A DNA stretch of 64,000 bases from Escherichia phage vB_Eco_mar004NP2. Below are positions 9,618 to 63,625 of the stretch, piece after piece. The notes under the pieces are model-generated. The model did not search any database. It was not told the origin of the DNA and was given only the letters and a program-made list of their open reading frames with translations. The first letter of the stretch is position 1. Each line of letters begins with the position of its first letter. A program made the position numbers and the translations under genes. Location: the sequence record OR896837.1; one strand, 5' to 3'.

Positions 9618-10031
9618 TTAAACTAGTTCGACATGACCTCCATCATAGGTACCACGTTTTATTTCATCGTGATAGTCTCCTGAAGCATTCCAATCAGCAC
9701 CAAAACGAAGTTTAATGCCTAGTTCTTTACCAGCTTGTTCAAAAGCCTTTTTAACCGCCCAAAATGCTTCTAAGTCATTCCAATCAATTTTGCCATTAAT
9801 ATATGGAGCAAAATCAATAGCATCCCCAGTAATATGTTTGCTTTTACTAGGATCTTTTAGAAATGAAGTACCATTAGCAATGTTCTGGGCACTTTGTGCT
9901 ACTGTACGAATACCTTGCACGATTGTGAAATCATACGGAGATAATTCTAAAGCCCTACGAGCTACTTTTTGTAGCTCGGGCTTAACGGTAGCTAATTGTT
10001 TTTCGCTATTTTTACCAAATTTAAAACTCAT
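9618..10031 (-). CDS. endolysin, L-alanyl-D-glutamate peptidase (M15-like)
   Basis: 137 aa; HITGDAIDF...GADW...DYHD...GGHVE metal-binding pattern; sits just downstream of the putative holin. Confidence 0.8.
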   Translation of the reverse strand: MSFKFGKNSEKQLATVKPELQKVARRALELSPYDFTIVQGIRTVAQSAQNIANGTSFLKDPSKSKHITGDAIDFAPYINGKIDWNDLEAFWAVKKAFEQAGKELGIKLRFGADWNASGDYHDEIKRGTYDGGHVELV

Positions 10032-10738
10032 ATTGACCTACCTAAAGATCTCTGTTGTGTGGAACAGAGCTTTGCTAAATATTCCTTGAACTGTTCAGAA
10101 TCAGCTGTATCTACCGGATTATCTTTCCAAGCAATACCAATGTACCCAGCATAGATATTTTTTAGATTGAAGTATGGACAAGTGTATATGTAATTAAAAG
10201 TAACGTTTTTAAACGCAGGTATATTTAACCCCATATATTTATTTACTCTTACACTTAAATCCGATGCGTAGTTAAAGCCCTCTAAATGACGTCTGTATAA
10301 TTCAGACGTTTTATTTACCGCTTTATCGGCCAAGTCAGCCCTATCTAATTGCGCATTACTTTCCCATGCAATAATATTGGAATAATCATTGATAGCATCT
10401 GGTTTATACTTGACTACAAAAACAGCATCTGCACCCGTCTGAGAGAAGAGAACCATGCTCTTTTCCCTCGCCACATTAGGGAAGTTATCTATCCTCTGGG
10501 TTTGTAAATCCTGTAAAACTGCAGACGTGGAAAAAGTCTTTAAGAATGACATTACTTCACTAGTATTACTAACAAATAAGAAAATAATGACAGCAACTAA
10601 GATAGTTAGCAGACGTTTAAGAAGCGATGCTGGGTCTTTCGCTTCTTGGAGCAGTACTGTTAATAATTGTAAGAACTTTTCCAATTTGTAACCTCCTCTA
10701 ACCAGTACCATTATACTAATTTTGGAGGAAAATTTCAA
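10028..10738 (-). CDS. putative holin
   Basis: TM segment LLTILVAVIIFLFV; position immediately upstream of and overlapping the endolysin. Confidence 0.5.
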   Translation of the reverse strand: MKFSSKISIMVLVRGGYKLEKFLQLLTVLLQEAKDPASLLKRLLTILVAVIIFLFVSNTSEVMSFLKTFSTSAVLQDLQTQRIDNFPNVAREKSMVLFSQTGADAVFVVKYKPDAINDYSNIIAWESNAQLDRADLADKAVNKTSELYRRHLEGFNYASDLSVRVNKYMGLNIPAFKNVTFNYIYTCPYFNLKNIYAGYIGIAWKDNPVDTADSEQFKEYLAKLCSTQQRSLGRSI

Positions 10739-10840
10739 TGGGTTTTTAAATGTTACACTTGGAGCATAAAATTATGTCGTTGTCAAGAAGAATTTTAGAT
10801 AAAAGAAAAGCCAGGGTACTTAACCCTGGCTTAAAATTAC

Positions 10841-11323
10841 TTACTCTTCGTTGTGCTCCTCAGATTGAGTTAACTGCATTTTATTATATTGCTCAGATCT
10901 ATATTTCGCCAAGATTTCAATACGCTTATGGATTTCCTTGCTATCTAGATAGATATTTTTGTTGTCTTTTACCATCTCGTCTATTTCATCTATTGAGAAG
11001 AACGGATAGTAGACATCTAGCATCATATCTTCTACGAACTTGTTGTAAGATTCATAGGCTTTCTTGATTTCTTGACCTTTCTCACAGAATCCGCCAGAGA
11101 ACGTGTGTCCCATTAGCGTAGCATGTGGATGTACTACCCATCCATGACAGGATAGGAAAATTGTGCAGTAAGCAGAAGCACTAGGACCAACCAGATGTCC
11201 TATAACTGTTCCACGGCAATTAGCAATTAAGTTAGATAACTGTGCAGCAGTATCAACATAACCACCTGGACCATTAATCATCAGATTAATTTCGTCGTCC
11301 TCATTTGCTTGCATAAGTACCAT
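10841..11323 (-). CDS. ClpP-like (S14) serine peptidase, N-terminally interrupted
   Basis: INGPGG, GPSASA and VHPHATLMGH segments align with ClpP catalytic regions; N-terminal part lies in another frame (see findings). Confidence 0.5.
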   Translation of the reverse strand: MVLMQANEDDEINLMINGPGGYVDTAAQLSNLIANCRGTVIGHLVGPSASAYCTIFLSCHGWVVHPHATLMGHTFSGGFCEKGQEIKKAYESYNKFVEDMMLDVYYPFFSIDEIDEMVKDNKNIYLDSKEIHKRIEILAKYRSEQYNKMQLTQSEEHNEE

Positions 11324-11451
11324 TGATAAATCACGGTATTCATCCGGCGGACCGAGTTCTTCATCAAAGAAAAAGGTATACTCATTAGATTGGCGAATGG
11401 AGTGAAACAGGTTAGTCTTTTCTTCTTTTTATTAGTCATAGCGATCCTTGA

Positions 11452-12204
11452 TTATCCAACTAGTGGTTCTAGCTCTAAGTCACAGAAGTTATAAACTTCT
11501 AGTTTAAGGTTATTGATACCATCGAATTTATTAACTAATTCGTGAGTAATATATTTTGCAGGAATACCACTTTCAGATGGATGATCTGATTTAATAGTGA
11601 ACTTCTGCTCAGCTGGTACTACATTTACTATCAAAGAATCCATATCTAAATGGTTTGTTTCTCTGAGTAGCTCTCCTTCATTGAGGAATCTAACATCTGT
11701 TATTACGGCGACATCTGGGTCGTCTTTAGCGATGGATTGCTCCAGAATTATGAGCCAAATGCGTTCATGTACCAGCTGCCTTCCTAGCTCTGTCCCTACG
11801 AGCTGTAACATTTTTCTCGGAGAAATAAATAAACTATAAAGTCCGTCTTCTTTATTCTCTGAGATAAGTTGTTGAGGATTAAGATATTTTTCCTCAAAAA
11901 TCGGCCAAACGTACGAGAAGTCTTCAAACTTATCGATACCGTATTTAAACCATACGTCTCTAGCTCGCTCCAATTGAGATTGTGTGACCGTAAACCATTG
12001 GTCAATCTCTTTTCCCCTGCGCTCTCCTAGAAACTCTGGAGTTACACCGAGGATTACAGATGCAAGTTCATAAACGGGCTTGGCAAAACTGTAACGACGG
12101 GGTAAACACGTTGGATACGTGTCATTACACCAATCGATAATTAATTTTGCAACGGTATCTTTTCCCGAACCAGCTTCACCATGTAAACCGACTAATACTG
12201 ACAT
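11452..12204 (-). CDS. deoxynucleoside monophosphate kinase
   Basis: P-loop GEAGSGKDT at N-terminus; about 250 aa; phage dNMP kinase family. Confidence 0.7.
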   Translation of the reverse strand: MSVLVGLHGEAGSGKDTVAKLIIDWCNDTYPTCLPRRYSFAKPVYELASVILGVTPEFLGERRGKEIDQWFTVTQSQLERARDVWFKYGIDKFEDFSYVWPIFEEKYLNPQQLISENKEDGLYSLFISPRKMLQLVGTELGRQLVHERIWLIILEQSIAKDDPDVAVITDVRFLNEGELLRETNHLDMDSLIVNVVPAEQKFTIKSDHPSESGIPAKYITHELVNKFDGINNLKLEVYNFCDLELEPLVG

Positions 12205-15718: not shown

Positions 15719-15795
15719 TTCAAACCTCTCCCATCAATTTATATAAATATTATAACAAGAAATTAAGCATCAAGCAACTGCGTTTTTCTTGAAAT

Positions 15796-15874
15796 TGGTA
15801 GATCGCCTGGGACTCGAACCCAGAACCTTCCGATTAAAAGTCGGATGCTACTAAACCTATTGAGCTAGCGATCT
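15796..15874 (-). tRNA. tRNA-Lys (anticodon UUU)
   Basis: Hand fold: acceptor AGATCGC/GCGATCT, T-arm CTGGG-TTCGAGT-CCCAG, anticodon loop CTTTTAA, CCA encoded. Confidence 0.7.
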
Positions 15875-16063
15875 ATTAGTAACCATTATATACTTCTTTA
15901 ATAGAGTGAACTTTCAAGTAAGGGTGATTAATCCCAAACTCCGCCATTACTTCTTTCTCATCTTTTCCATAATGAGCAAGTAAGGATTTTGAGGTATTCT
16001 TACCTAAACGTTTGTCACTTACTACTAATCGAAATACTTTCATTTCGAAATCCTCTATTAAAG

Positions 16064-16140
16064 TGGAAGCGGGTGCAGGAATCGAACCTACCTCTTTCTA
16101 GCTTATGAGACTAGCGATCTCTACCAGAGATCTAACCCGC
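16064..16140 (-). tRNA. tRNA with CAU anticodon (Met or Ile2)
   Basis: Anticodon arm CTAGT-CTCATAA-GCTAG; T-loop TTCGATT; imperfect acceptor stem. Confidence 0.55.
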
Positions 16141-16147
16141 AATTGTT

Positions 16148-16225
16148 TGGTCTCCGTGGGAGGATTTGAACCCACGACCCTATCGCCCCAAACGAAACGC
16201 TCTGGCCAAACTGAGCTACACGGAG
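16148..16225 (-). tRNA. tRNA-Pro (anticodon UGG)
   Basis: Perfect acceptor CTCCGTG/CACGGAG + A + CCA; D-arm GCTC/GAGC; loop TTTGGGG; T-stem imperfect. Confidence 0.55.
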
Positions 16226-16600
16226 AATATTATTTCTTTAACCACAGCAAAGATAAGCCCAGCATACTAAAACCGCTAACTAATCCGATACATTTTTCTT
16301 CTATAGTAAAAGTATCTAGATTAAATGCTGTTATAGCTATTGGTATACACCATAATGCCATAAAAACTTGAGCTATCTTGTGTTTCATTTTGCTTTCCTT
16401 CTCTTCACTTTATAAAATATATTATACAGATAATAAAGCAGAATAGCAAATGAATTTTTAATAAATTTACTTATTGTGTAGGCCACCTGGAGGCTACCAA
16501 CCCCACGGCTGACAAAGAAGTTTGCGAGACCTCTCTTAAATGCCAGAATAGACCCGGCGGGTCTATCGGAACCTACATAATAAGTAAACTTTATAGTGTC

Positions 16601-16720
16601 ATTCTAGACAGGACTCGAACCTATTATCACTTGTGCGGACTTACGAGAACCATTCTTTCACTCGAATCGAACGAGCTTCTGCCCTCGCCAAGCTGGTTTC
16701 CCCATCAACCACGCTAGAAT
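16601..16720 (-). ncRNA. tRNA-like structured RNA, about 120 nt
   Basis: Terminal 7-bp pairing ATTCTAG/CTAGAAT, D-like stem GGTT/AACC, T-arm ATAGG-TTCGAGT-CCTGT, but about 70 nt of extra internal sequence and no canonical anticodon arm. Confidence 0.3.
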
Positions 16721-16842
16721 GTTTGATTGTTTTCAGTGCAAGAGTCCGAGTCTTGGACACGACCGCTTCGCAAGTACATAGGCAGCTTATCATGAGTCAG
16801 CACTTCCGAATTGCTAGCTCCGTGTTCTGCACTGAAATTTTG

Positions 16843-17190
16843 TTAATTTAATAGTAAAGTACGATCTACTTCACCATTAATTGTTCGGCATTCTTCTGGG
16901 ATTGCTGGTGTAGTCTTATATTCCCACCATTCAGAACCATCATATTCACCACGTTCTAACCAAGTTCCATCGGTAAACCATACGTTACCATAAAGCAATT
17001 GTCCGCCGAAACCAGAATCATGTTTAAAGTCTAGATTATCTAGAAAATCTTCAATATCTTTTTCTGTATAACCTACGGGTAATACCCAAACTTCTTTATC
17101 CCCATAATAACCGAATTCTATCTTAATACACTTAACTTCAGAATTAGTATTCTTTAGGGCAAGTAACAATTCTTCTTTAGCATTAATCAT
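16843..17190 (-). CDS. hypothetical protein (115 aa)
   Basis: ORF inside the tRNA region. Confidence 0.45.
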   Translation of the reverse strand: MINAKEELLLALKNTNSEVKCIKIEFGYYGDKEVWVLPVGYTEKDIEDFLDNLDFKHDSGFGGQLLYGNVWFTDGTWLERGEYDGSEWWEYKTTPAIPEECRTINGEVDRTLLLN

Positions 17191-17216
17191 AGCATATTTC
17201 TCGTGCTAGTTTAATT

Positions 17217-17291
17217 TGGTACACCCTGTTCGTATCGAACGAACCTCTCAAGCTCTTCAGGCAAGCGCTAATCCATCTCAGCTAAAGGTGC
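17217..17291 (-). tRNA. tRNA-Phe-like (GAA) candidate, possibly defective
   Basis: 75 nt; acceptor GCACCTT/AGGGTGT with 2 G-U pairs; T-arm GTTCG-TTCGATA-CGAAC; loop CTGAAGA; anticodon stem has two T-T mismatches. Confidence 0.4.
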
Positions 17292-17445
17292 AAATTTTGG
17301 CAGGGGTAAAGGTATTCGAAAGCTTGGGCTTCAGAAGTAGCTCTGGCTAACCTATATCCTTTTTTATATTCATCAGGGTATTCTCTATCTTGAATAAACA
17401 CAACATAAACTATGTATAATTCCACTTGTAATCCCCTAATTAAGT

Positions 17446-18254: not shown

Positions 18255-19203
18255 TTACTTATTACGCATATCCATAATCATCTGGCCATCGTAACCAGTG
18301 CCAACCACAGTCTGCGGTACACCACCTTGATACTTCTGAGCACGAATCATTTCAACTTCTAGTTGCTTCCAGCGAATCATCTCAGGAGTAATGGTACGTT
18401 GCAGCGCGGCGTTAGCTTCAGCTTCTTTCTTAGCTGCGTACAGTTTAGCATCTGCGTCGCGTTCGTTAGCAATAGCTTGGTTATTACGAGCTTCACGGTC
18501 TGCTTCTGCTTGTTTAACTTTCTGCTGAGCTTCTTGTTCAACGCGAGCCAGTTCAGCTTTTGCAGCATTAACTTGCTCTTCACGAACTTTGGTATTCTGT
18601 ACCTGTTCCATGATTACTGGTGGCAAAGTAATATCCTGAAGAAACATCTGCTTAACTGTGTAGCCATATGGGCGTGCATACTCTTCAACTTCCTGTTGAA
18701 TTGCAGTTTGCAATTGAGCCTGAATTTTAGCATCAAATAAATCTTGTGCTTTAGGTACAGACTTACCAAACTCACGAATAGTAGACAGTAATTTTTCAGT
18801 TACATATTTGTCTAATGCTTGATCCTGAGTACCTGCATTAATACGGTTAATCGGTGCCTTAGAACCATCAAACTGCAACATAACAGTCAGGTCAACAGTG
18901 GATTTAAACTTATCCTGGCTAGGAACCTGAAGTTTATCTAATTTTTACAGCAATATCTTTTGTACTAAAAGTATCGAAAGATGCAAATGGGTTTACAGGA
19001 TGGAAACCAGGTAATACTGGGTTAGGATCTACTTTACCAAGAAATGTTTGGGTTTTAACCGTACCATCAGAAACAATAGTATATGAATTAAAAGCTAGGA
19101 TTAAACCTGCTAAACCAACTACAGCACCAATCCCCCAACGTTTAATAGTACGAATTACTTTCTGCTCAGAAGTTAGTTCTTTCATATTTTTAGTATTAAA
19201 CAT
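18255..19203 (-). pseudogene. SPFH/band-7 membrane protein, reading frame interrupted (two ORFs, 18934..19203 and 18255..18881)
   Basis: Upstream ORF gives TM anchor plus first SPFH segment; downstream ORF gives the rest plus coiled coil; frames differ by +1 across an A5 run. Confidence 0.5.
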
Positions 19204-46246: not shown

Positions 46247-46264
46247 TCTGGTAAATTAAACCTA

Positions 46265-46297
46265 AGGGGAGGGGGCTATGCTCCTTCCCCTTTTTTG
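46265..46297 (+). terminator. rho-independent terminator
   Basis: GGGGAGGGGG...CCTTCCCC hairpin + TTTTTT. Confidence 0.5.
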
Positions 46298-46329
46298 CAT
46301 TTAGAAGGCACGAAAGCGTGCAAAGGAGA

Positions 46330-59513: not shown

Positions 59514-61283
59514 TTGTGATACTAATTGTACCTTTAATTGCTCAAGCTCTTTCTCTAGATCTTCAATCCGTTTAATAAGATCTTGCACAACATGCATAGT
59601 GTCAAGAAGCATTGGAGTTGTATCTAATTCCTTTTGCTCCTGCTCTATTCCGTCATCATTATAAAATTTTCTAGTTTTTACATAAAGTGGTTCTATAGTC
59701 TCTACTTGCTGAGCAATAACCCCACGTCGGACACGAGATTTTTCATCGTTATTATATACAAAGGATTGGAATTCTAATCCTTTTAATACCTCGATGGACT
59801 TAGTTGCGTCTATAGCCTTAATATCATGCTTTAAGCGAGAATCAGATACAGCATTTAATTGCAAAGTATAGGTTGCTGAAGCACCTGGCCACCAAGAATA
59901 AAAATAAATACTATTATTATTCGGCTGAATTTTTAAACGCACACCAAATTTATTATCATCATCTCCCGCTACCTGCCAACAAGAATCTGCAAATGAGCCT
60001 AAGTCATTATGAATTAATCCAAAATGTGCAGATGTCTTATACCCTGCGGAAGAAGACTGGGAACCGCTCAATATACTATTAAAGTTAAATGTACTACCTA
60101 TATTGACCTCGTTCTGAGAAAGAGTACCTTGTACCCAGCCAGTCTGAGACCACGCCATGCCAGTAACTAATCTAGCTTTAAAACGATCCGTTACAAAATC
60201 CCCATTTATCTACAAGCTGGGCGGAATTCGATTTACCGGTAGATTTATTGTCTATTAGTAGTTCAGTAGAGTAGGTGCCACCAATAGTAGCTTTAGCTCG
60301 TAGTGTACTTACAGCCTCACTACTAGTACCTACTTTATACTCAGATAGTACACTCCCGCCATAAACAGTAGTACCAGTATTAGGTTTGACAGCATCACCA
60401 CTAATAACACTCCACGAAGTCTTTGCAGCCACGAACCCACCAGAAGCACGGATTACCCAGACACCTATAAAGCTGTTTGGAATAATAGTACCTTTTATTC
60501 CATAACGCCCATAAACAGGGTCCGCTAAGTTTGCATCAAAACTAAATCCGTATTGGTTATCAGGATTAACTACGGCGAATGATTTAGATGCACCTCCAGG
60601 AGCGGCACCTAAGCCGTTTTCACCACCAATCGCCCCAATAAGACCAAATCTAGATGAATATCTATTAAGCGCTTCTTCATATGCACCAGCAATAGCGCCA
60701 GGAAAACTACCAGTAATATTGGGTGCTGCAGCTTCTGATATTGAACCAGCTTGACCAGCATCCCCCCCCCCCCCACCGTCACCACGAGCGAATAACCCTT
60801 TGATTGAATTTAGTTGCACACCATTACGATCTGGGACGCGGAAAGTAGTGGTACCATCTCCCGTAGAATATTTCCCACGTTGTCCTACATCTGCTAACCA
60901 AACTGAATCATCTATAGCTCCAACCATTTGTGCATACGCCCAAAGTTCAGGCCAGTCAGCCCTGTTAAGAAGCTGCCCATCAGAAACTACCTCATAAGGT
61001 TGAATATACGCACGGCTATCTCGAAGATGAAAATCCCCACCCCGTAGTTCATAACACCATTCATTGTGGGTCCTACTGTGCCAGTATTAAGTTTGTTCTC
61101 CACCCAACGCTTAGTTGCGGCATCATAGTCACTAACAGGATCTCCAGCAAGAGGGGTAGATCCAATAGGACGCACATTTAGCCATGCTGCACGGTCTGCT
61201 AAGTCACTCAGGTTATTATTTTTATTAAGTGACTCATTTTTAAGTTTTGTAATATCCGTAGGAATTACTGTTTTAGTTACCAT
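59511..61283 (-). pseudogene. tail fiber protein with C-terminal intramolecular chaperone/autoprotease domain, split into three ORFs by two frame breaks
   Basis: N-terminus MVTKTVIP...PLAGDPVSDYDAATKRWV; open frame continues in another phase (HNEWCYELRGGDF...); C-terminal ORF carries the SDSRLK autocleavage-type motif. Confidence 0.55.
60762..60774. repeat. 13-nt C/G homopolymer inside the tail fiber coding sequence
   Basis: Read directly; encodes the Gly run GDGGGGGD on the minus strand. Confidence 0.9.
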
Positions 61284-61571: not shown

Positions 61572-63625
61572 ACATACTCCTTCATTTGTCTATCAGTTAG
61601 TTCCTTATGCCAGATTCTAAAGTTTCTAACGTGCCCGAAAAGATGACGTTCGCCCCTAGTTGTTTGTCCTCCAATCCTTATAGTAGCCGTTGATTGTATG
61701 TATCTCCATTCCGTTTTTGTTTCGCTTGATATTCTGGCATTACTTACACAGCAAGTATTGTAATCACTCTTTACTCTCATTCCCATGATCATCTTTTTTA
61801 GTTTTGCATTCTCGTAAACCCTTCTGTTTGATTTACCTATATCGCAATAAGGGAAACCATCATTATCGCCTTCGGCAGATCCGAAAGCAAGAATAATAGC
61901 CGCTTCGGTTTGATGACCTCTGGTATCAAAAACACGTGGCGCTGCACTTGGCGTTATACTCCAGTTTTTATGAGCTTCCACAAGTACTGTAAACGGCAAA
62001 TTGTAAAGGTTGTTTTTTATTGGTAATGTGACCATATCGCTTGCCCGTGTTACTGGAGTCTCTTCTGTAATAATAAACGATGAAGCGCACGCCCCGCCTT
62101 CAACTTGAGGGGTAGCTACCTGTAAGTACTCTCCACCAGAATAAGTGCCAGGTGAAACAGGTGGAGCAATTTGGATCTGAGAGCTAACCATATTATCAAT
62201 AGCTTCAGATTGATATGTAACCTCGAAATAAATCCATCCATTAGATTCTTTCTCCGCTCGGGCGGTTATTCTTGCAGCCCCTACTTCCGTTTTTCTAATG
62301 GACATATCTGTTATATTAAGATATGCATCTGCTAGATAAAAATATGCGGATCCGTCATATCTTTCAAATCTTATACGACATTGTATATTAGCACTATCGC
62401 TTTTTACACGACATGATGTTGTAACATACTTTTCAGTTCCGGTAACATCGACACCTCTTCCTCCTGAAATCGCAGCGATATTCATTGCCGTATTTGTCCC
62501 AATTTTTTCGTCCTTTATTTGAAACCGCCCATAAGTAAATCCAAACTCATCAACACCACTTTCTGTTATAGTTACACTTGTTGTAGCTTCCCACTTAGAT
62601 GGCGTAAGTGAGTTAAGATGATAGTTAGTTCTTTGCCCCTCAATGAGCAAACCATCCTTTTCAAATCTAGGTTCATTAATCCCCGCAACAGTTAATACAC
62701 CTGATTTATTAATATATGTCGCAGTTGATGCACGTGTAAAGCTAACAATCTTGTCACTGGGCAGTGTTATTTCCTCATCACCGACTGTTATTTTTTTTTT
62801 ATAGTCTGGCGCAAAGCCGGTGATCATATCTAGAGAATCGTTAAACGGTATCCATACATCTGGAAGAGGTTGAATGTCGGGGGTAGAATTAGCAGCAGCT
62901 TCTGATCTATCAGCCTCAGTTTTTGAACGATCGGCTTCAGTTTTAGCAGTATTAGCACTATTAGCAGCATTAGTAGCTTGTTTTCCTGCTTCAGTAGCAG
63001 AATTAGCAGCACTAGTTGCAGAATTAGCAGCTTGGTTTTTTAGCGTGGTAGTTTCTGTTATCGCGCTATTCTTAATGCCTTGTGTGTCTGTTTTTAACTG
63101 CGCAACATCTGCCTTTATAGCTGTTGTCTCTGTTACAGCACTGTTTTTAATGGCCTGAGTATCTGATTTTAGCTGCTCAACATCTGATTTTAAGCCTTGA
63201 ATAGTAGTTACTGACTGACTAGCTGAAGTTGCGGAACTAGCTGCGTTATTCTCACTAGCTTTGGCTTTAGTCTCACTAGCTTTGGCTTTAGTCTCACTAG
63301 CTTTTGCATTAGTCTCGGATACTTTAGCAGCGGATGCAGATGTTGCAGCTTGTCTAGCGAATGTTTCTGCTTCATCCCTAAAACCTTTAGAATTGGCAGC
63401 AGACGCAGCAGCATTAGTCTCACTAATTTTAGCGTTAGTTTCGCTAATTTTTGCAGCCGCAGCAGATTTAGCAGCAGCCTCTATAGAAGATACTAACTCA
63501 TTAGCAGTAATAGAGCTAATAGAATTTCCAAGAGTTACTGTGTATCTAGGAAATTTACTAGCAGTAGCTTTAGTATCATCAATATTTAATATTTGTTGTA
63601 CAATAATCTTAGTAGTTATTGCCAT
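61568..63625 (-). CDS. L-shaped/side tail fiber protein (685 aa)
   Basis: N-terminus [18 protein letters not shown]..., repetitive SETNAKASETKAKASE coiled-coil repeats typical of side tail fibers. Confidence 0.7.
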   Translation of the reverse strand: MAITTKIIVQQILNIDDTKATASKFPRYTVTLGNSISSITANELVSSIEAAAKSAAAAKISETNAKISETNAAASAANSKGFRDEAETFARQAATSASAAKVSETNAKASETKAKASETKAKASENNAASSATSASQSVTTIQGLKSDVEQLKSDTQAIKNSAVTETTAIKADVAQLKTDTQGIKNSAITETTTLKNQAANSATSAANSATEAGKQATNAANSANTAKTEADRSKTEADRSEAAANSTPDIQPLPDVWIPFNDSLDMITGFAPDYKKKITVGDEEITLPSDKIVSFTRASTATYINKSGVLTVAGINEPRFEKDGLLIEGQRTNYHLNSLTPSKWEATTSVTITESGVDEFGFTYGRFQIKDEKIGTNTAMNIAAISGGRGVDVTGTEKYVTTSCRVKSDSANIQCRIRFERYDGSAYFYLADAYLNITDMSIRKTEVGAARITARAEKESNGWIYFEVTYQSEAIDNMVSSQIQIAPPVSPGTYSGGEYLQVATPQVEGGACASSFIITEETPVTRASDMVTLPIKNNLYNLPFTVLVEAHKNWSITPSAAPRVFDTRGHQTEAAIILAFGSAEGDNDGFPYCDIGKSNRRVYENAKLKKMIMGMRVKSDYNTCCVSNARISSETKTEWRYIQSTATIRIGGQTTRGERHLFGHVRNFRIWHKELTDRQMKEYV
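62791..62800. repeat. 10-nt T/A homopolymer inside the tail fiber coding sequence
   Basis: Read directly; encodes KKK on the minus strand. Confidence 0.9.

What the first reader, a model, noticed from the sequence alone, without database searches (positions are those of the whole stretch)
10841..11439. ClpP-like peptidase whose N-terminus is in a different frame, switching at an A5 run
The ClpP-like frame is open from a TAA at 11429..11431 but has no ATG before Met at 11323, which would delete about 40 residues of the ClpP fold. An ATG at 11439 with a plausible leader is in the +1 frame. One extra A in the AAAAA run (forward T5 at 11426..11430) would give a continuous full-length protein. The site resembles, but does not match, the classic A-AAA-AAG slippery heptamer.
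Basis: partly seen in the sequence, partly recalled or inferred. Interest (0 to 1): 0.5.

Follow-up and report, generated by a model that had tools for sequence, protein, structure and literature searches.

The report
One-base deletion breaks phage ClpP-like gene
This T5-like phage sequence is missing one A from a run of six at the start of a well-known ClpP-like protease gene; about 440 related phages all keep the gene in one frame, so this is a sequencing error or a private knockout mutation, not programmed frameshifting.

Summary
On the minus strand, ATG 11439 opens one frame and the ClpP-like frame (-1 relative to it) opens after TAA 11431..11429. The two overlap at an A5 run (11430..11426).

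The gene is the orthologue of phage T5 gene T5.042 ("ATP-dependent Clp protease", 199 aa). T5 and the closest relatives have A6 there and one continuous ORF. Residues 5-199 of the window's protein are 100% identical to phage mar004NP2.

The A5 allele has no exact match in 439 phage records, IMG/VR, metagenome contigs or genome contigs. The A6 allele matches 143 records exactly. In the Epseptimavirus clade the run is interrupted by synonymous changes while the protein MTNKKEEKTNLFH... is conserved. There is no downstream stimulatory hairpin. Programmed -1 frameshifting is therefore not supported.

The window also carries about seven other private 1-nt indels. Three of them break two further genes (an SPFH/Band-7 gene once, a tail-fibre gene twice). 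Each close relative has 0-1.

Base-calling or assembly error is my leading explanation (about 0.55). A genuine null mutation in a dispensable gene comes second (about 0.37); leaky -1 slippage at A_AAG would then restore exactly the wild-type protein. Only the reads can decide. Interest is low.

The parts
10841..11439 (-). Frameshifted orthologue of phage T5 gene T5.042 (ClpP-family peptidase, 199 aa when intact), from the conserved ATG to the TAA stop
   Evidence: 97-99.9% nt identity to 437 T5-like records annotated as Clp protease or ATP-dependent protease. The T5 and mar004NP2 CDS is 600 nt against 599 nt here.
11437..11439 (-). Conserved ATG start codon of the gene
   Evidence: Invariant in the alignment of 7 phages. 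It is the annotated start in T5, mar004NP2, PMBT29, Sepoy and others.
11445..11449 (-). Shine-Dalgarno sequence AAGGA, 5 nt upstream of the ATG and 13 nt upstream of U_AAA_AAG
   Evidence: Read from the sequence. An RBS is annotated at the same place in phage Sepoy.
11426..11430 (-). A5 homopolymer, the site of the private 1-nt deletion (A6 in relatives)
   Evidence: Alignments. A5 has 0 exact matches in four collections. A6 matches 143 phage records and 19 IMG/VR contigs exactly.
11429..11431 (-). TAA that closes the ClpP frame upstream; it exists only because of the frame offset (AAT AAA in relatives)
10844..11428 (-). ClpP-frame segment encoding residues 5-199, 100% identical to the mar004NP2 protein
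   Evidence: tblastn. Pfam CLP_protease PF00574, E = 4e-8, 33.8 bits against a cutoff of 20.2.
11281..11439 (-). 52-codon out-of-frame ORF (MTNKKKKRLTCF...) that ribosomes starting at the real ATG would read
   Evidence: This frame is not conserved in relatives: changes there are mostly non-synonymous and relatives have 1-5 stops in it. No gene with this product is on record.
11321..11323 (-). Internal Met40 codon, the first canonical start in the ClpP frame; no convincing SD upstream
   Evidence: The 160-aa product is not on record anywhere.
11174..11176 (-). Codon of the predicted catalytic Ser89 (GPSASAY motif)
   Evidence: Aligned to the GQAAS(A/M)G serine of solved ClpP 3q7h. Invariant in 7 phages.
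11105..11107 (-). Codon of the predicted catalytic His112 (LMGH)
   Evidence: Aligned to the MIHQ histidine of ClpP 3q7h. Invariant.
10808..10832 (-). Intrinsic terminator hairpin directly after the gene
   Evidence: Terminator scan: 10-bp stem, 6 GC pairs, T-tail. A terminator is annotated at the same place in T5.

Best explanation
The region is the ordinary orthologue of phage T5 gene T5.042, an early-region ClpP-family serine peptidase of 199 aa. It lies between the dNMP kinase gene and the holin/endolysin genes. Its normal expression needs no recoding: one ATG, one Shine-Dalgarno sequence, one continuous ORF and one terminator. In this window the A6 run at codons 4-5 is recorded as A5, which puts the start codon out of frame with the rest of the gene. 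I think the most likely cause is a base-calling or assembly error in the source record, one of a set of single-base indel errors in this sequence. In that case the real phage has A6 and makes the normal protein. What is shown: the deletion, its uniqueness, the intact conserved ORF in relatives, and the excess of private 1-nt indels in this window. What is inferred: that the cause is technical rather than mutational.
For: (1) A5 against A6: T5, mar004NP2, PMBT29, SPLA5b and KS_S14 all have one more A and an intact 199-200 aa ORF. (2) Uniqueness: 0 of 439 phage records match the A5 72-mer, and the best hits are 98.6% identical, differing by the one gap. 143 records match the A6 73-mer exactly, and almost all sampled others span 73 nt. 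In IMG/VR, A5 has 0 matches and A6 has 19. A5 has 0 matches in metagenome and genome contigs. (3) The window has 7-8 private 1-nt indels against 131 private substitutions. Three references at 99.2-99.8% identity have 1-2 against 325 between them (Fisher p = 4e-4 to 4e-3). (4) Three of those indels break two other genes that are intact in all close relatives: the SPFH/Band-7 gene at 18946, and a 592-codon tail-fibre gene twice, at 61039 and 60207. These alleles are also unique, with 0 exact matches in 451, 13 and 99 records. (5) Six of the eight indels are insertions, which runs against the usual deletion bias of natural mutation (my own knowledge; weak evidence).
Against: Half of the private indels (16561, 42250, 46296, 53559) are intergenic, where 13-26% would be expected (p about 0.01-0.11). 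The four coding ones fall in three genes that are plausibly dispensable: the Clp-like gene, the SPFH gene, and an L-shaped-fibre-like gene with a Peptidase_S74 chaperone domain. None hits the large replication genes. That pattern looks like selection having filtered real mutations. The longest homopolymers in the window (C13 at 60769-60781, T10 near 62798) differ from relatives by multiples of 3 and keep frame, which is not what a platform prone to homopolymer errors would be expected to give. Several indels are in 1-2-nt runs. The window also lacks about 7.8 kb of the tRNA region, which is reminiscent of deletion derivatives such as T5st0 and fits a lineage that really is losing accessory functions. 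No reads are available, so the cause cannot be proven.
Confidence: 0.55

Rival explanations
1. Genuine private loss-of-function mutation. Replication slippage contracted A6 to A5 in this phage lineage and knocked out a dispensable accessory gene. Ribosomes starting at ATG 11439 make a 52-aa nonsense peptide. A small fraction may slip -1 on aaU_AAA_AAG (the A_AAG tetramer), which would regenerate exactly the wild-type sequence MTNKKEEKT..., so the allele would be leaky rather than null.
For: The private indels avoid clearly essential coding sequence and are enriched in intergenic DNA. All three broken genes are plausibly non-essential. The lineage also has a tRNA region shortened by about 7.8 kb, with only 5 tRNAs against 24 in mar004NP2. 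Long homopolymers elsewhere are in frame. A_AAG is a minimal -1 shift site in E. coli and A_AAA_AAG the most shift-prone heptamer (PMC5009743). Single-bp deletion mutants of lambda cI are rescued at about 10% by non-programmed -1 slippage, mostly at A_AAA_AAG / A_AAG_AAA (PMC10861913). The -1 slip arithmetic follows directly from the sequence.
Against: The ratio of 1-nt indels to substitutions is 10-20 times higher than in three close relatives. Seven of the eight indel alleles are singletons among about 440 genomes. Two independent frameshifts in a single 1.8-kb fibre gene at about 99% identity is unusual for a recent natural lineage. The insertion bias is 6:2.
Confidence: 0.37
2. Programmed -1 ribosomal frameshifting, the reading the first reader hinted at. 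The gene is meant to be decoded in two frames, with the switch at the A5G site, as a regulated way of setting protease levels.
For: The ATG frame and the ClpP frame stand in the -1 relation. A_AAG lies in the right phase. The initiation SD lies 13 nt upstream of the site, inside the 10-14 nt range that I recall as stimulatory for -1 shifts (my own knowledge, not tested).
Against: No relative has the two-frame layout: 0 of 439. The run is not conserved, since Epseptimavirus phages read AAT AAG AAA GAA or AAC AAG AAA GAA with the same protein. The heptamer is U_AAA_AAG, which is not X_XXY_YYZ. There is no downstream hairpin (MFE -4.9 kcal/mol, z = +0.81, and 156 of 200 shuffles fold at least as well). 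The zero-frame product is not conserved. The same genome has other, clearly non-programmed frameshifts.
Confidence: 0.03
3. The functional product is an N-terminally truncated 160-aa peptidase initiated at Met 11323 (or at a non-canonical CTG or ATT codon further upstream), and the upstream ATG is irrelevant.
For: The Pfam CLP_protease match scores the same for the 160-aa form (34.0 bits against 33.8), because the profile match starts at residue 41. The catalytic Ser and His are retained.
Against: Codons 1-40 are conserved as protein in relatives, with 9-10 synonymous against 3 non-synonymous codon changes compared with Sepoy and Ob_P, the same regime as the rest of the gene. Residues 20-40 align to strand beta-1 and helix A of ClpP1 structures (query 19-137 against chains of 2ce3, 4u0g and others), so the truncation removes core fold elements. 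There is no SD before ATG 11323. Ribosomes from ATG 11439 read through it in another frame until 11281. No such 160-aa product is on record. VAH1, the only record annotated with a truncated form, has several other split genes.
Confidence: 0.03

Closest known systems
Phage T5 gene T5.042 (YP_006870.1, 'ATP-dependent protease'; orf12c 'putative Clp-like protease'), BF23 ORF45 clp, and their orthologues across Tequintavirus and Epseptimavirus
   Same: Same locus and synteny: dnk, then the clp-like gene, terminator, promoter, holin and endolysin. 97-99.9% nt identity. Residues 5-199 are 100% identical to mar004NP2. Same start codon, SD and terminator.
   Different: One A fewer in the A6 run at codons 4-5, so the start codon is out of frame. 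This allele was found in no other record.
Bacterial ClpP (Pfam PF00574, MEROPS S14), e.g. Coxiella burnetii ClpP, PDB 3q7h
   Same: Significant family match (E = 4e-8 to Pfam; E = 2e-5 to 3q7h). Catalytic Ser (GPSASAY against GQAASAG) and His (LMGH against VMIH) are aligned and invariant.
   Different: Only distant similarity. It has a short, unrelated N-terminal 20 residues in place of the ClpP axial loops. The third triad position is Asp in Tequintavirus but Glu in Epseptimavirus. ATP dependence and a partner unfoldase are annotation only. The BF23 protein was detected in virions and its function is unknown (PMC10644984).
E. coli dnaX programmed -1 frameshift site (A_AAA_AAG with upstream SD and downstream hairpin)
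   Same: A lysine-codon run ending in AAG, in the -1 relation, with an SD-like sequence 13 nt upstream.
   Different: The first base is U, so the P-site tRNA cannot fully re-pair. There is no downstream hairpin. The site is not conserved in homologues. The two-frame layout is private to one sequence.
Non-programmed frameshift suppression of single-base deletions ('savior indel' plus compensatory slippage)
   Same: If A5 is real, a 1-nt deletion next to an A_AAG slip site could be partly rescued, as for lambda cI FS8 at about 10% (PMC10861913) and for herpesvirus TK G-run indels (PMC5009743).
   Different: There is no evidence here that the deletion is real, that any rescue occurs, or that it is selected.

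Membership tests
T5.042 orthologue group (Demerecviridae Clp-like early gene) | Position between the dNMP kinase gene and the holin/endolysin genes, followed by an intrinsic terminator | tested here: met
   Window ORFs: dnk 11452..12204, holin 10028..10738 and endolysin 9618..10031, all on the minus strand. The T5 and mar004NP2 annotation is identical in order. Terminator at 10832..10808.
T5.042 orthologue group (Demerecviridae Clp-like early gene) | High sequence identity over the whole gene | tested here: met
   437 records cover at least 80% of the 901-nt query at 80-99.9% identity. Residues 5-199 are 100% identical to mar004NP2.
T5.042 orthologue group (Demerecviridae Clp-like early gene) | Single continuous ORF of about 199 aa from the conserved ATG | tested here: not met
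   The window has 599 nt between the ATG and the stop instead of 600, so the ATG frame ends after 52 codons. This is why I file it as a damaged or mis-sequenced copy and not as a variant architecture.
ClpP family (Pfam PF00574 / MEROPS S14) | Profile match above the curated gathering threshold | tested here: met
   33.8 bits against a cutoff of 20.2, E = 4e-8, profile positions 39-139 of 182.
ClpP family (Pfam PF00574 / MEROPS S14) | Catalytic Ser and His at the aligned positions | tested here: met
   Ser89 and His112 align to the catalytic residues of 3q7h and are invariant in 7 phages.
ClpP family (Pfam PF00574 / MEROPS S14) | Third triad residue (Asp) | tested here: inconclusive
   Asp159 (VKD) aligns with EKD of 3q7h, but it is Glu in Sepoy, UTK0009 and Ob_P. 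The alignment is of low confidence in this part.
ClpP family (Pfam PF00574 / MEROPS S14) | Two stacked heptameric rings and docking of a Clp ATPase (the 'ATP-dependent' part) | not testable with these tools
   No structure prediction or interaction test was run. The annotation rests on similarity only, and the function is stated as unknown for BF23 (PMC10644984).
Programmed -1 ribosomal frameshift site (dnaX / IS-element type) | Slippery heptamer X_XXY_YYZ in the zero frame | tested here: not met
   The zero-frame reading is aaU_AAA_AAG. Only the A_AAG tetramer is present (motif definitions from PMC5009743).
Programmed -1 ribosomal frameshift site (dnaX / IS-element type) | Downstream stimulatory RNA structure | tested here: not met
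   The 70 nt downstream fold at -4.9 kcal/mol, z = +0.81, and 156 of 200 shuffles fold at least as well.
Programmed -1 ribosomal frameshift site (dnaX / IS-element type) | Upstream SD-like stimulator at suitable spacing | tested here: inconclusive
   AAGGA lies 13 nt upstream, but it is the gene's own initiation SD. The stimulatory spacing range is recalled from memory.
Programmed -1 ribosomal frameshift site (dnaX / IS-element type) | Two-frame gene layout and slippery site conserved in homologues | tested here: not met
   0 of 439 records carry the layout. The A-run is interrupted in Epseptimavirus while the protein is conserved. The zero-frame extension is not conserved.
Transcriptional slippage site | Long A/T homopolymer (about 8-9 or more) giving heterogeneous transcripts | tested here: not met
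   The run is only 5 nt, or 6 in relatives. The length requirement is from general knowledge (review PMC5009743).

The most novel reading that the evidence does not exclude
The A5 allele is real and acts as an attenuating ('savior'-type) indel. Most ribosomes abort, but -1 slippage of tRNA-Lys on A_AAG at codon 5 regenerates exactly the wild-type ClpP-like protein at a few percent. The slippage might be helped by the still-engaged initiation SD 13 nt upstream. This would happen in a lineage that has simultaneously lost the SPFH/Band-7 protein (a possible NfeD/SPFH-type partner), a lateral tail fibre and most tRNA genes. That would be a natural example of dose-tuning a virion-associated protease through a homopolymer switch.
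Probability: 0.07. Interest if true: 0.35.

Novelty: not a real feature. Interest (0 to 1): 0.08.

Why it matters
It matters mostly as a cautionary result. An apparent recoding site in a phage protease gene dissolves once relatives are compared. The same record carries several other unique single-base indels that split genes, so automatic annotation of this genome will mis-call at least three genes: the Clp-like gene, the SPFH gene and a tail-fibre gene. If the reads confirm the indels instead, the phage would be a natural triple knockout, together with a large tRNA-region deletion. That would show these accessory genes are dispensable, and it would give a convenient natural substrate for measuring non-programmed -1 slippage at A_AAG. 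Neither outcome changes what is known about frameshifting or about ClpP.

Tried and rejected
(1) I looked for the A5 allele, or the source contig, elsewhere. Exact-pattern scans of IMG/VR, metagenome contigs and genome contigs found nothing. Look-ups of the exact 160-aa and 52-aa products also found nothing.

(2) At first I counted the replicative helicase as a fourth broken gene (46296, T5 to T6). I rejected this. The indel lies in the T-tract of a terminator-like hairpin (46264..46292), upstream of a better start (AAAGGAGAATG), and the T6 allele is shared with phages GSW6 and PHZ191.

(3) I hoped KS_S14 would be a near-identical relative that could give a clean substitution-to-indel ratio. 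It is only about 97% identical, so it served only as a fourth reference.

(4) The calculation 'all four coding hits fall in three named genes' is post hoc, and I do not use it.

(5) I argued at first that the broken tail gene proves error because it is essential. I dropped this after Pfam showed a Peptidase_S74 chaperone domain, which is typical of the L-shaped lateral fibres. Those are dispensable in T5 on rough hosts (my own knowledge).

(6) I considered VAH1 as a second instance of a frameshift here. That record has an A8 variant but also split dnk and holin genes, so it is a low-quality record and not independent evidence.

(7) I did not run the capped protein database searches or structure prediction, because the gene's identity was already settled by annotated relatives.

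Full report
**What is in the sequence**

Read on the minus strand, the region contains AAGGA (11449..11445) and ATG (11439..11437). It continues act aat AAAAA g aag aaa aga ..., with the A5 run at 11430..11426.
- The ATG frame stays open for only 52 codons, reading MTNKKKKRLTCF... and ending at TGA 11283..11281.
- The -1 frame opens after TAA 11431..11429 and encodes KEEKTNLFHSIRQSNEYTFFFDEELGPPDEYRDLSMVLMQ...GPSASAY...LMGH...HNEE*, ending at 10841.
- Its first canonical start codon is ATG 11323, giving a 160-aa ORF.

**What the gene is**

The window is a T5-like phage (Tequintavirus). A 901-nt query around the gene matches 441 phage records, and 437 of them cover at least 80% of it at 80-99.9% identity. 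The matched gene is annotated as Clp protease or ATP-dependent protease, and dNMP kinase and holin flank it.

In T5 (NC_005859) the gene is T5.042, a 600-nt CDS of 199 aa. It is followed by an annotated terminator, and then by the promoter, holin and endolysin. mar004NP2 is laid out the same way, and the window has the same neighbours and the same terminator.

The protein belongs to Pfam CLP_protease (33.8 bits against a cutoff of 20.2). Its Ser89 and His112 align with the catalytic Ser and His of solved ClpP structures and are invariant in seven phages. The third triad position is Asp in Tequintavirus and Glu in Epseptimavirus.

A proteomics study of BF23 detected the orthologue (ORF45, predicted 22.9 kDa, which is the full-length size) in purified virions and called its function unknown (PMC10644984).

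**Where the frames diverge**

Aligning the 5' ends shows that T5 and mar004NP2 read ATG ACT AAT AAA AAA GAA GAA AAG ... (A6), while the window has A5. With A6 the ORF is continuous: MTNKKEEKTNLFHS.... tblastn of the mar004NP2 protein against the window gives 100% identity for residues 5-199 in one frame. The whole anomaly is therefore a single missing A.

**Is the two-frame layout conserved?**

No.
- The 72-nt A5 sequence has no exact match in 439 matching phage records. The best hits are 98.6% identical and span 73 nt, which is the one-base gap.
- The 73-nt A6 version matches 143 records exactly. Rows sampled across the whole ranking nearly all span 73 nt; AKFV33 and phiLLS span 70 nt, which is in frame.
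- Exact-pattern scans give A5 = 0 and A6 = 19 in IMG/VR. A5 = 0 in metagenome contigs and in genome contigs.
- In the divergent Epseptimavirus clade the A-run is interrupted (AAT AAG AAA GAA; AAC AAG AAA GAA; ACT AAT AAG AAA GAA) while the protein N-terminus is conserved. The only natural indels are +AAT (SPLA5b) and -AAT (AKFV33).
- Codons 1-40 show 9-10 synonymous against 3 non-synonymous codon differences between mar004NP2 and Sepoy or Ob_P. That is the same regime as codons 41-199 (43-46 against 20). In the other two frames the differences are mostly non-synonymous and introduce stops.

The N-terminal 40 residues are thus translated in the ClpP frame in all relatives. Neither the 52-aa alternative product nor the slippery run is conserved.

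**Frameshift-site anatomy**

The zero-frame reading is aaU_AAA_AAG. It contains the A_AAG tetramer, a minimal -1 shift site in E. coli (PMC5009743), but it is not an X_XXY_YYZ heptamer.

The 70 nt downstream have no structure beyond chance (-4.9 kcal/mol, z = +0.81). The only SD-like element upstream is the gene's own initiation SD, 13 nt away. A5 is far too short for transcriptional slippage.

From the sequence itself, a -1 slip with AAG in the A site would produce M-T-N-K-K-E-E-K-T..., which is exactly the wild-type protein. If the deletion is real, some leaky rescue is therefore plausible. Single-base deletion mutants of lambda cI are rescued at about 10%, largely at A_AAA_AAG / A_AAG_AAA (PMC10861913). 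That would be non-programmed suppression and not a designed recoding signal.

**Error or real mutation?**

I compared the whole window with PMBT29, SPLA5b and mar004NP2 (99.2-99.8% identity), and later with KS_S14.

The private 1-nt indels in the window are:

| Window position | Change | Location |
|---|---|---|
| 11430/1 | T6 to T5 on the + strand | Clp-like gene |
| 16561 | +1 nt | intergenic, tRNA region |
| 18946 | T4 to T5 | SPFH/Band-7 gene |
| 42250 | A5 to A6 | intergenic |
| 46296 | T5 to T6 | T-tract of a terminator hairpin |
| 53559 | +1 nt | intergenic |
| 60207 | T2 to T3 | tail-fibre gene |
| 61039 | C5 to C4 | tail-fibre gene |

The indel at 18946 splits a 315-aa SPFH/Band-7 gene. 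Those at 61039 and 60207 split a 589-aa tail-fibre gene with a Peptidase_S74 chaperone domain into three frame segments.

Each reference has 0-1 private 1-nt indels, and their private substitution counts are comparable: the window has 131 and the references have 325 in total. The excess is significant (Fisher p = 4e-4 to 4e-3).

Seven of the eight alleles have no exact match among the related records. Only the terminator T6 allele is shared, with GSW6 and PHZ191. By contrast, indels that are multiples of 3 occur in both the window and the references, and they look like ordinary polymorphism.

This pattern is what a record with residual single-base indel errors looks like, and it is my leading explanation (0.55).

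The case is not closed, for these reasons:
- Half of the indels are intergenic, against 13-26% expected.
- The coding ones hit only genes that are plausibly dispensable.
- The replication genes are untouched.
- The longest homopolymers (C13, T10) are in frame.
- The genome also lacks about 7.8 kb of the tRNA region, with 5 tRNAs against 24 in mar004NP2.

This is how a genuinely gene-losing lineage would look, so a real null or leaky mutation keeps 0.37. Programmed frameshifting (0.03) and a functional truncated protein starting at Met 11323 (0.03) are poorly supported.

**Comparison with known systems, and verdict**

The gene is a member of the T5.042 orthologue group and of the ClpP family by sequence. 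It fails the one architectural criterion, a continuous ORF, because of a private single-base deletion. It does not meet the defining features of a programmed -1 frameshift site: no canonical heptamer, no downstream stimulator and no conservation.

Interest is low (0.08). The only mildly novel reading left open is a real attenuating indel with compensatory slippage (probability about 0.07). Resequencing the A-run, together with the three other gene-breaking sites, would settle the question.

Noticed in passing
window 18258..19203 (-), indel at 18946: A 315-aa SPFH/Band-7 gene (Pfam PF01145), intact in PMBT29, SPLA5b, mar004NP2 and KS_S14, is split into two frames here by a private T4-to-T5 insertion. 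The allele has 0 exact matches in 451 records.
   Followed up: yes
window 59514..61283 (-), indels at 61039 and 60207: A 589-aa tail-fibre gene with a C-terminal Peptidase_S74 intramolecular-chaperone domain (it looks like an L-shaped lateral fibre) is broken into three frame segments by two private 1-nt indels (C5 to C4, T2 to T3). Both alleles are unique among matching records.
   Followed up: yes
window 60769..60781: A poly-C tract (poly-G on the coding strand, encoding a Gly run) inside the same tail-fibre gene is hypervariable: C13 here, C10 in SPLA5b, C7 in PMBT29 and C6 in KS_S14. In KS_S14 the gene is annotated as two CDSs, which I attribute to the out-of-frame C6 tract. It could be a contingency or phase-variable tract, or a sequencing trouble spot.
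   Followed up: partly
window about 15729..17325: The tRNA-gene region is about 7.8 kb shorter than in all close relatives. There are three deletion junctions, one with a 34-nt overlap at 15729-15762. Only 5 tRNA genes remain (Lys, Met, Pro, Ser, Arg) against 24 in mar004NP2. This is reminiscent of T5st0-type deletion derivatives.
   Followed up: partly
window 46264..46300: The start codon that relatives annotate for the DnaB-like helicase (MLLPLFAFRR...) sits inside a strong terminator-like hairpin with a T-tract. The real start is probably the downstream ATG preceded by AAAGGAG. The T-tract is T6 here and in phages GSW6 and PHZ191, and T5 in most others.
   Followed up: partly
window 10841..11439 and 18258..19203: The Clp-like protein also gives a weak match to the NfeD1b N-terminal domain (E = 1e-3, below the cutoff), and the genome encodes an SPFH protein. 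NfeD-type ClpP-class proteases and SPFH proteins are known partners in bacteria. Both genes are frameshifted in this window. This may be coincidence.
   Followed up: no
window about 62798 and 63251..63625: In the 797-aa side-tail-fibre (Stf) gene, a T10 run is 3 nt longer than in relatives (in frame). The N-terminal 139 residues are only about 73% identical to PMBT29, against 98% for the rest, which suggests a mosaic or recombinant N-terminus.
   Followed up: no
L003 (MK373792.1, phage VAH1) 1290..2686: The public VAH1 record has the same Clp gene truncated (an A8 variant, one base short) and also has split dnk and holin genes. That record appears to carry many frameshift errors.
   Followed up: partly
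window 16550..16570: A private change converts GACCCGCCGGTC to GACCCGGCGGGTC in an intergenic hairpin of the tRNA region. It is a substitution plus a 1-nt insertion that lengthens the palindrome. This is not a simple homopolymer change.
   Followed up: no
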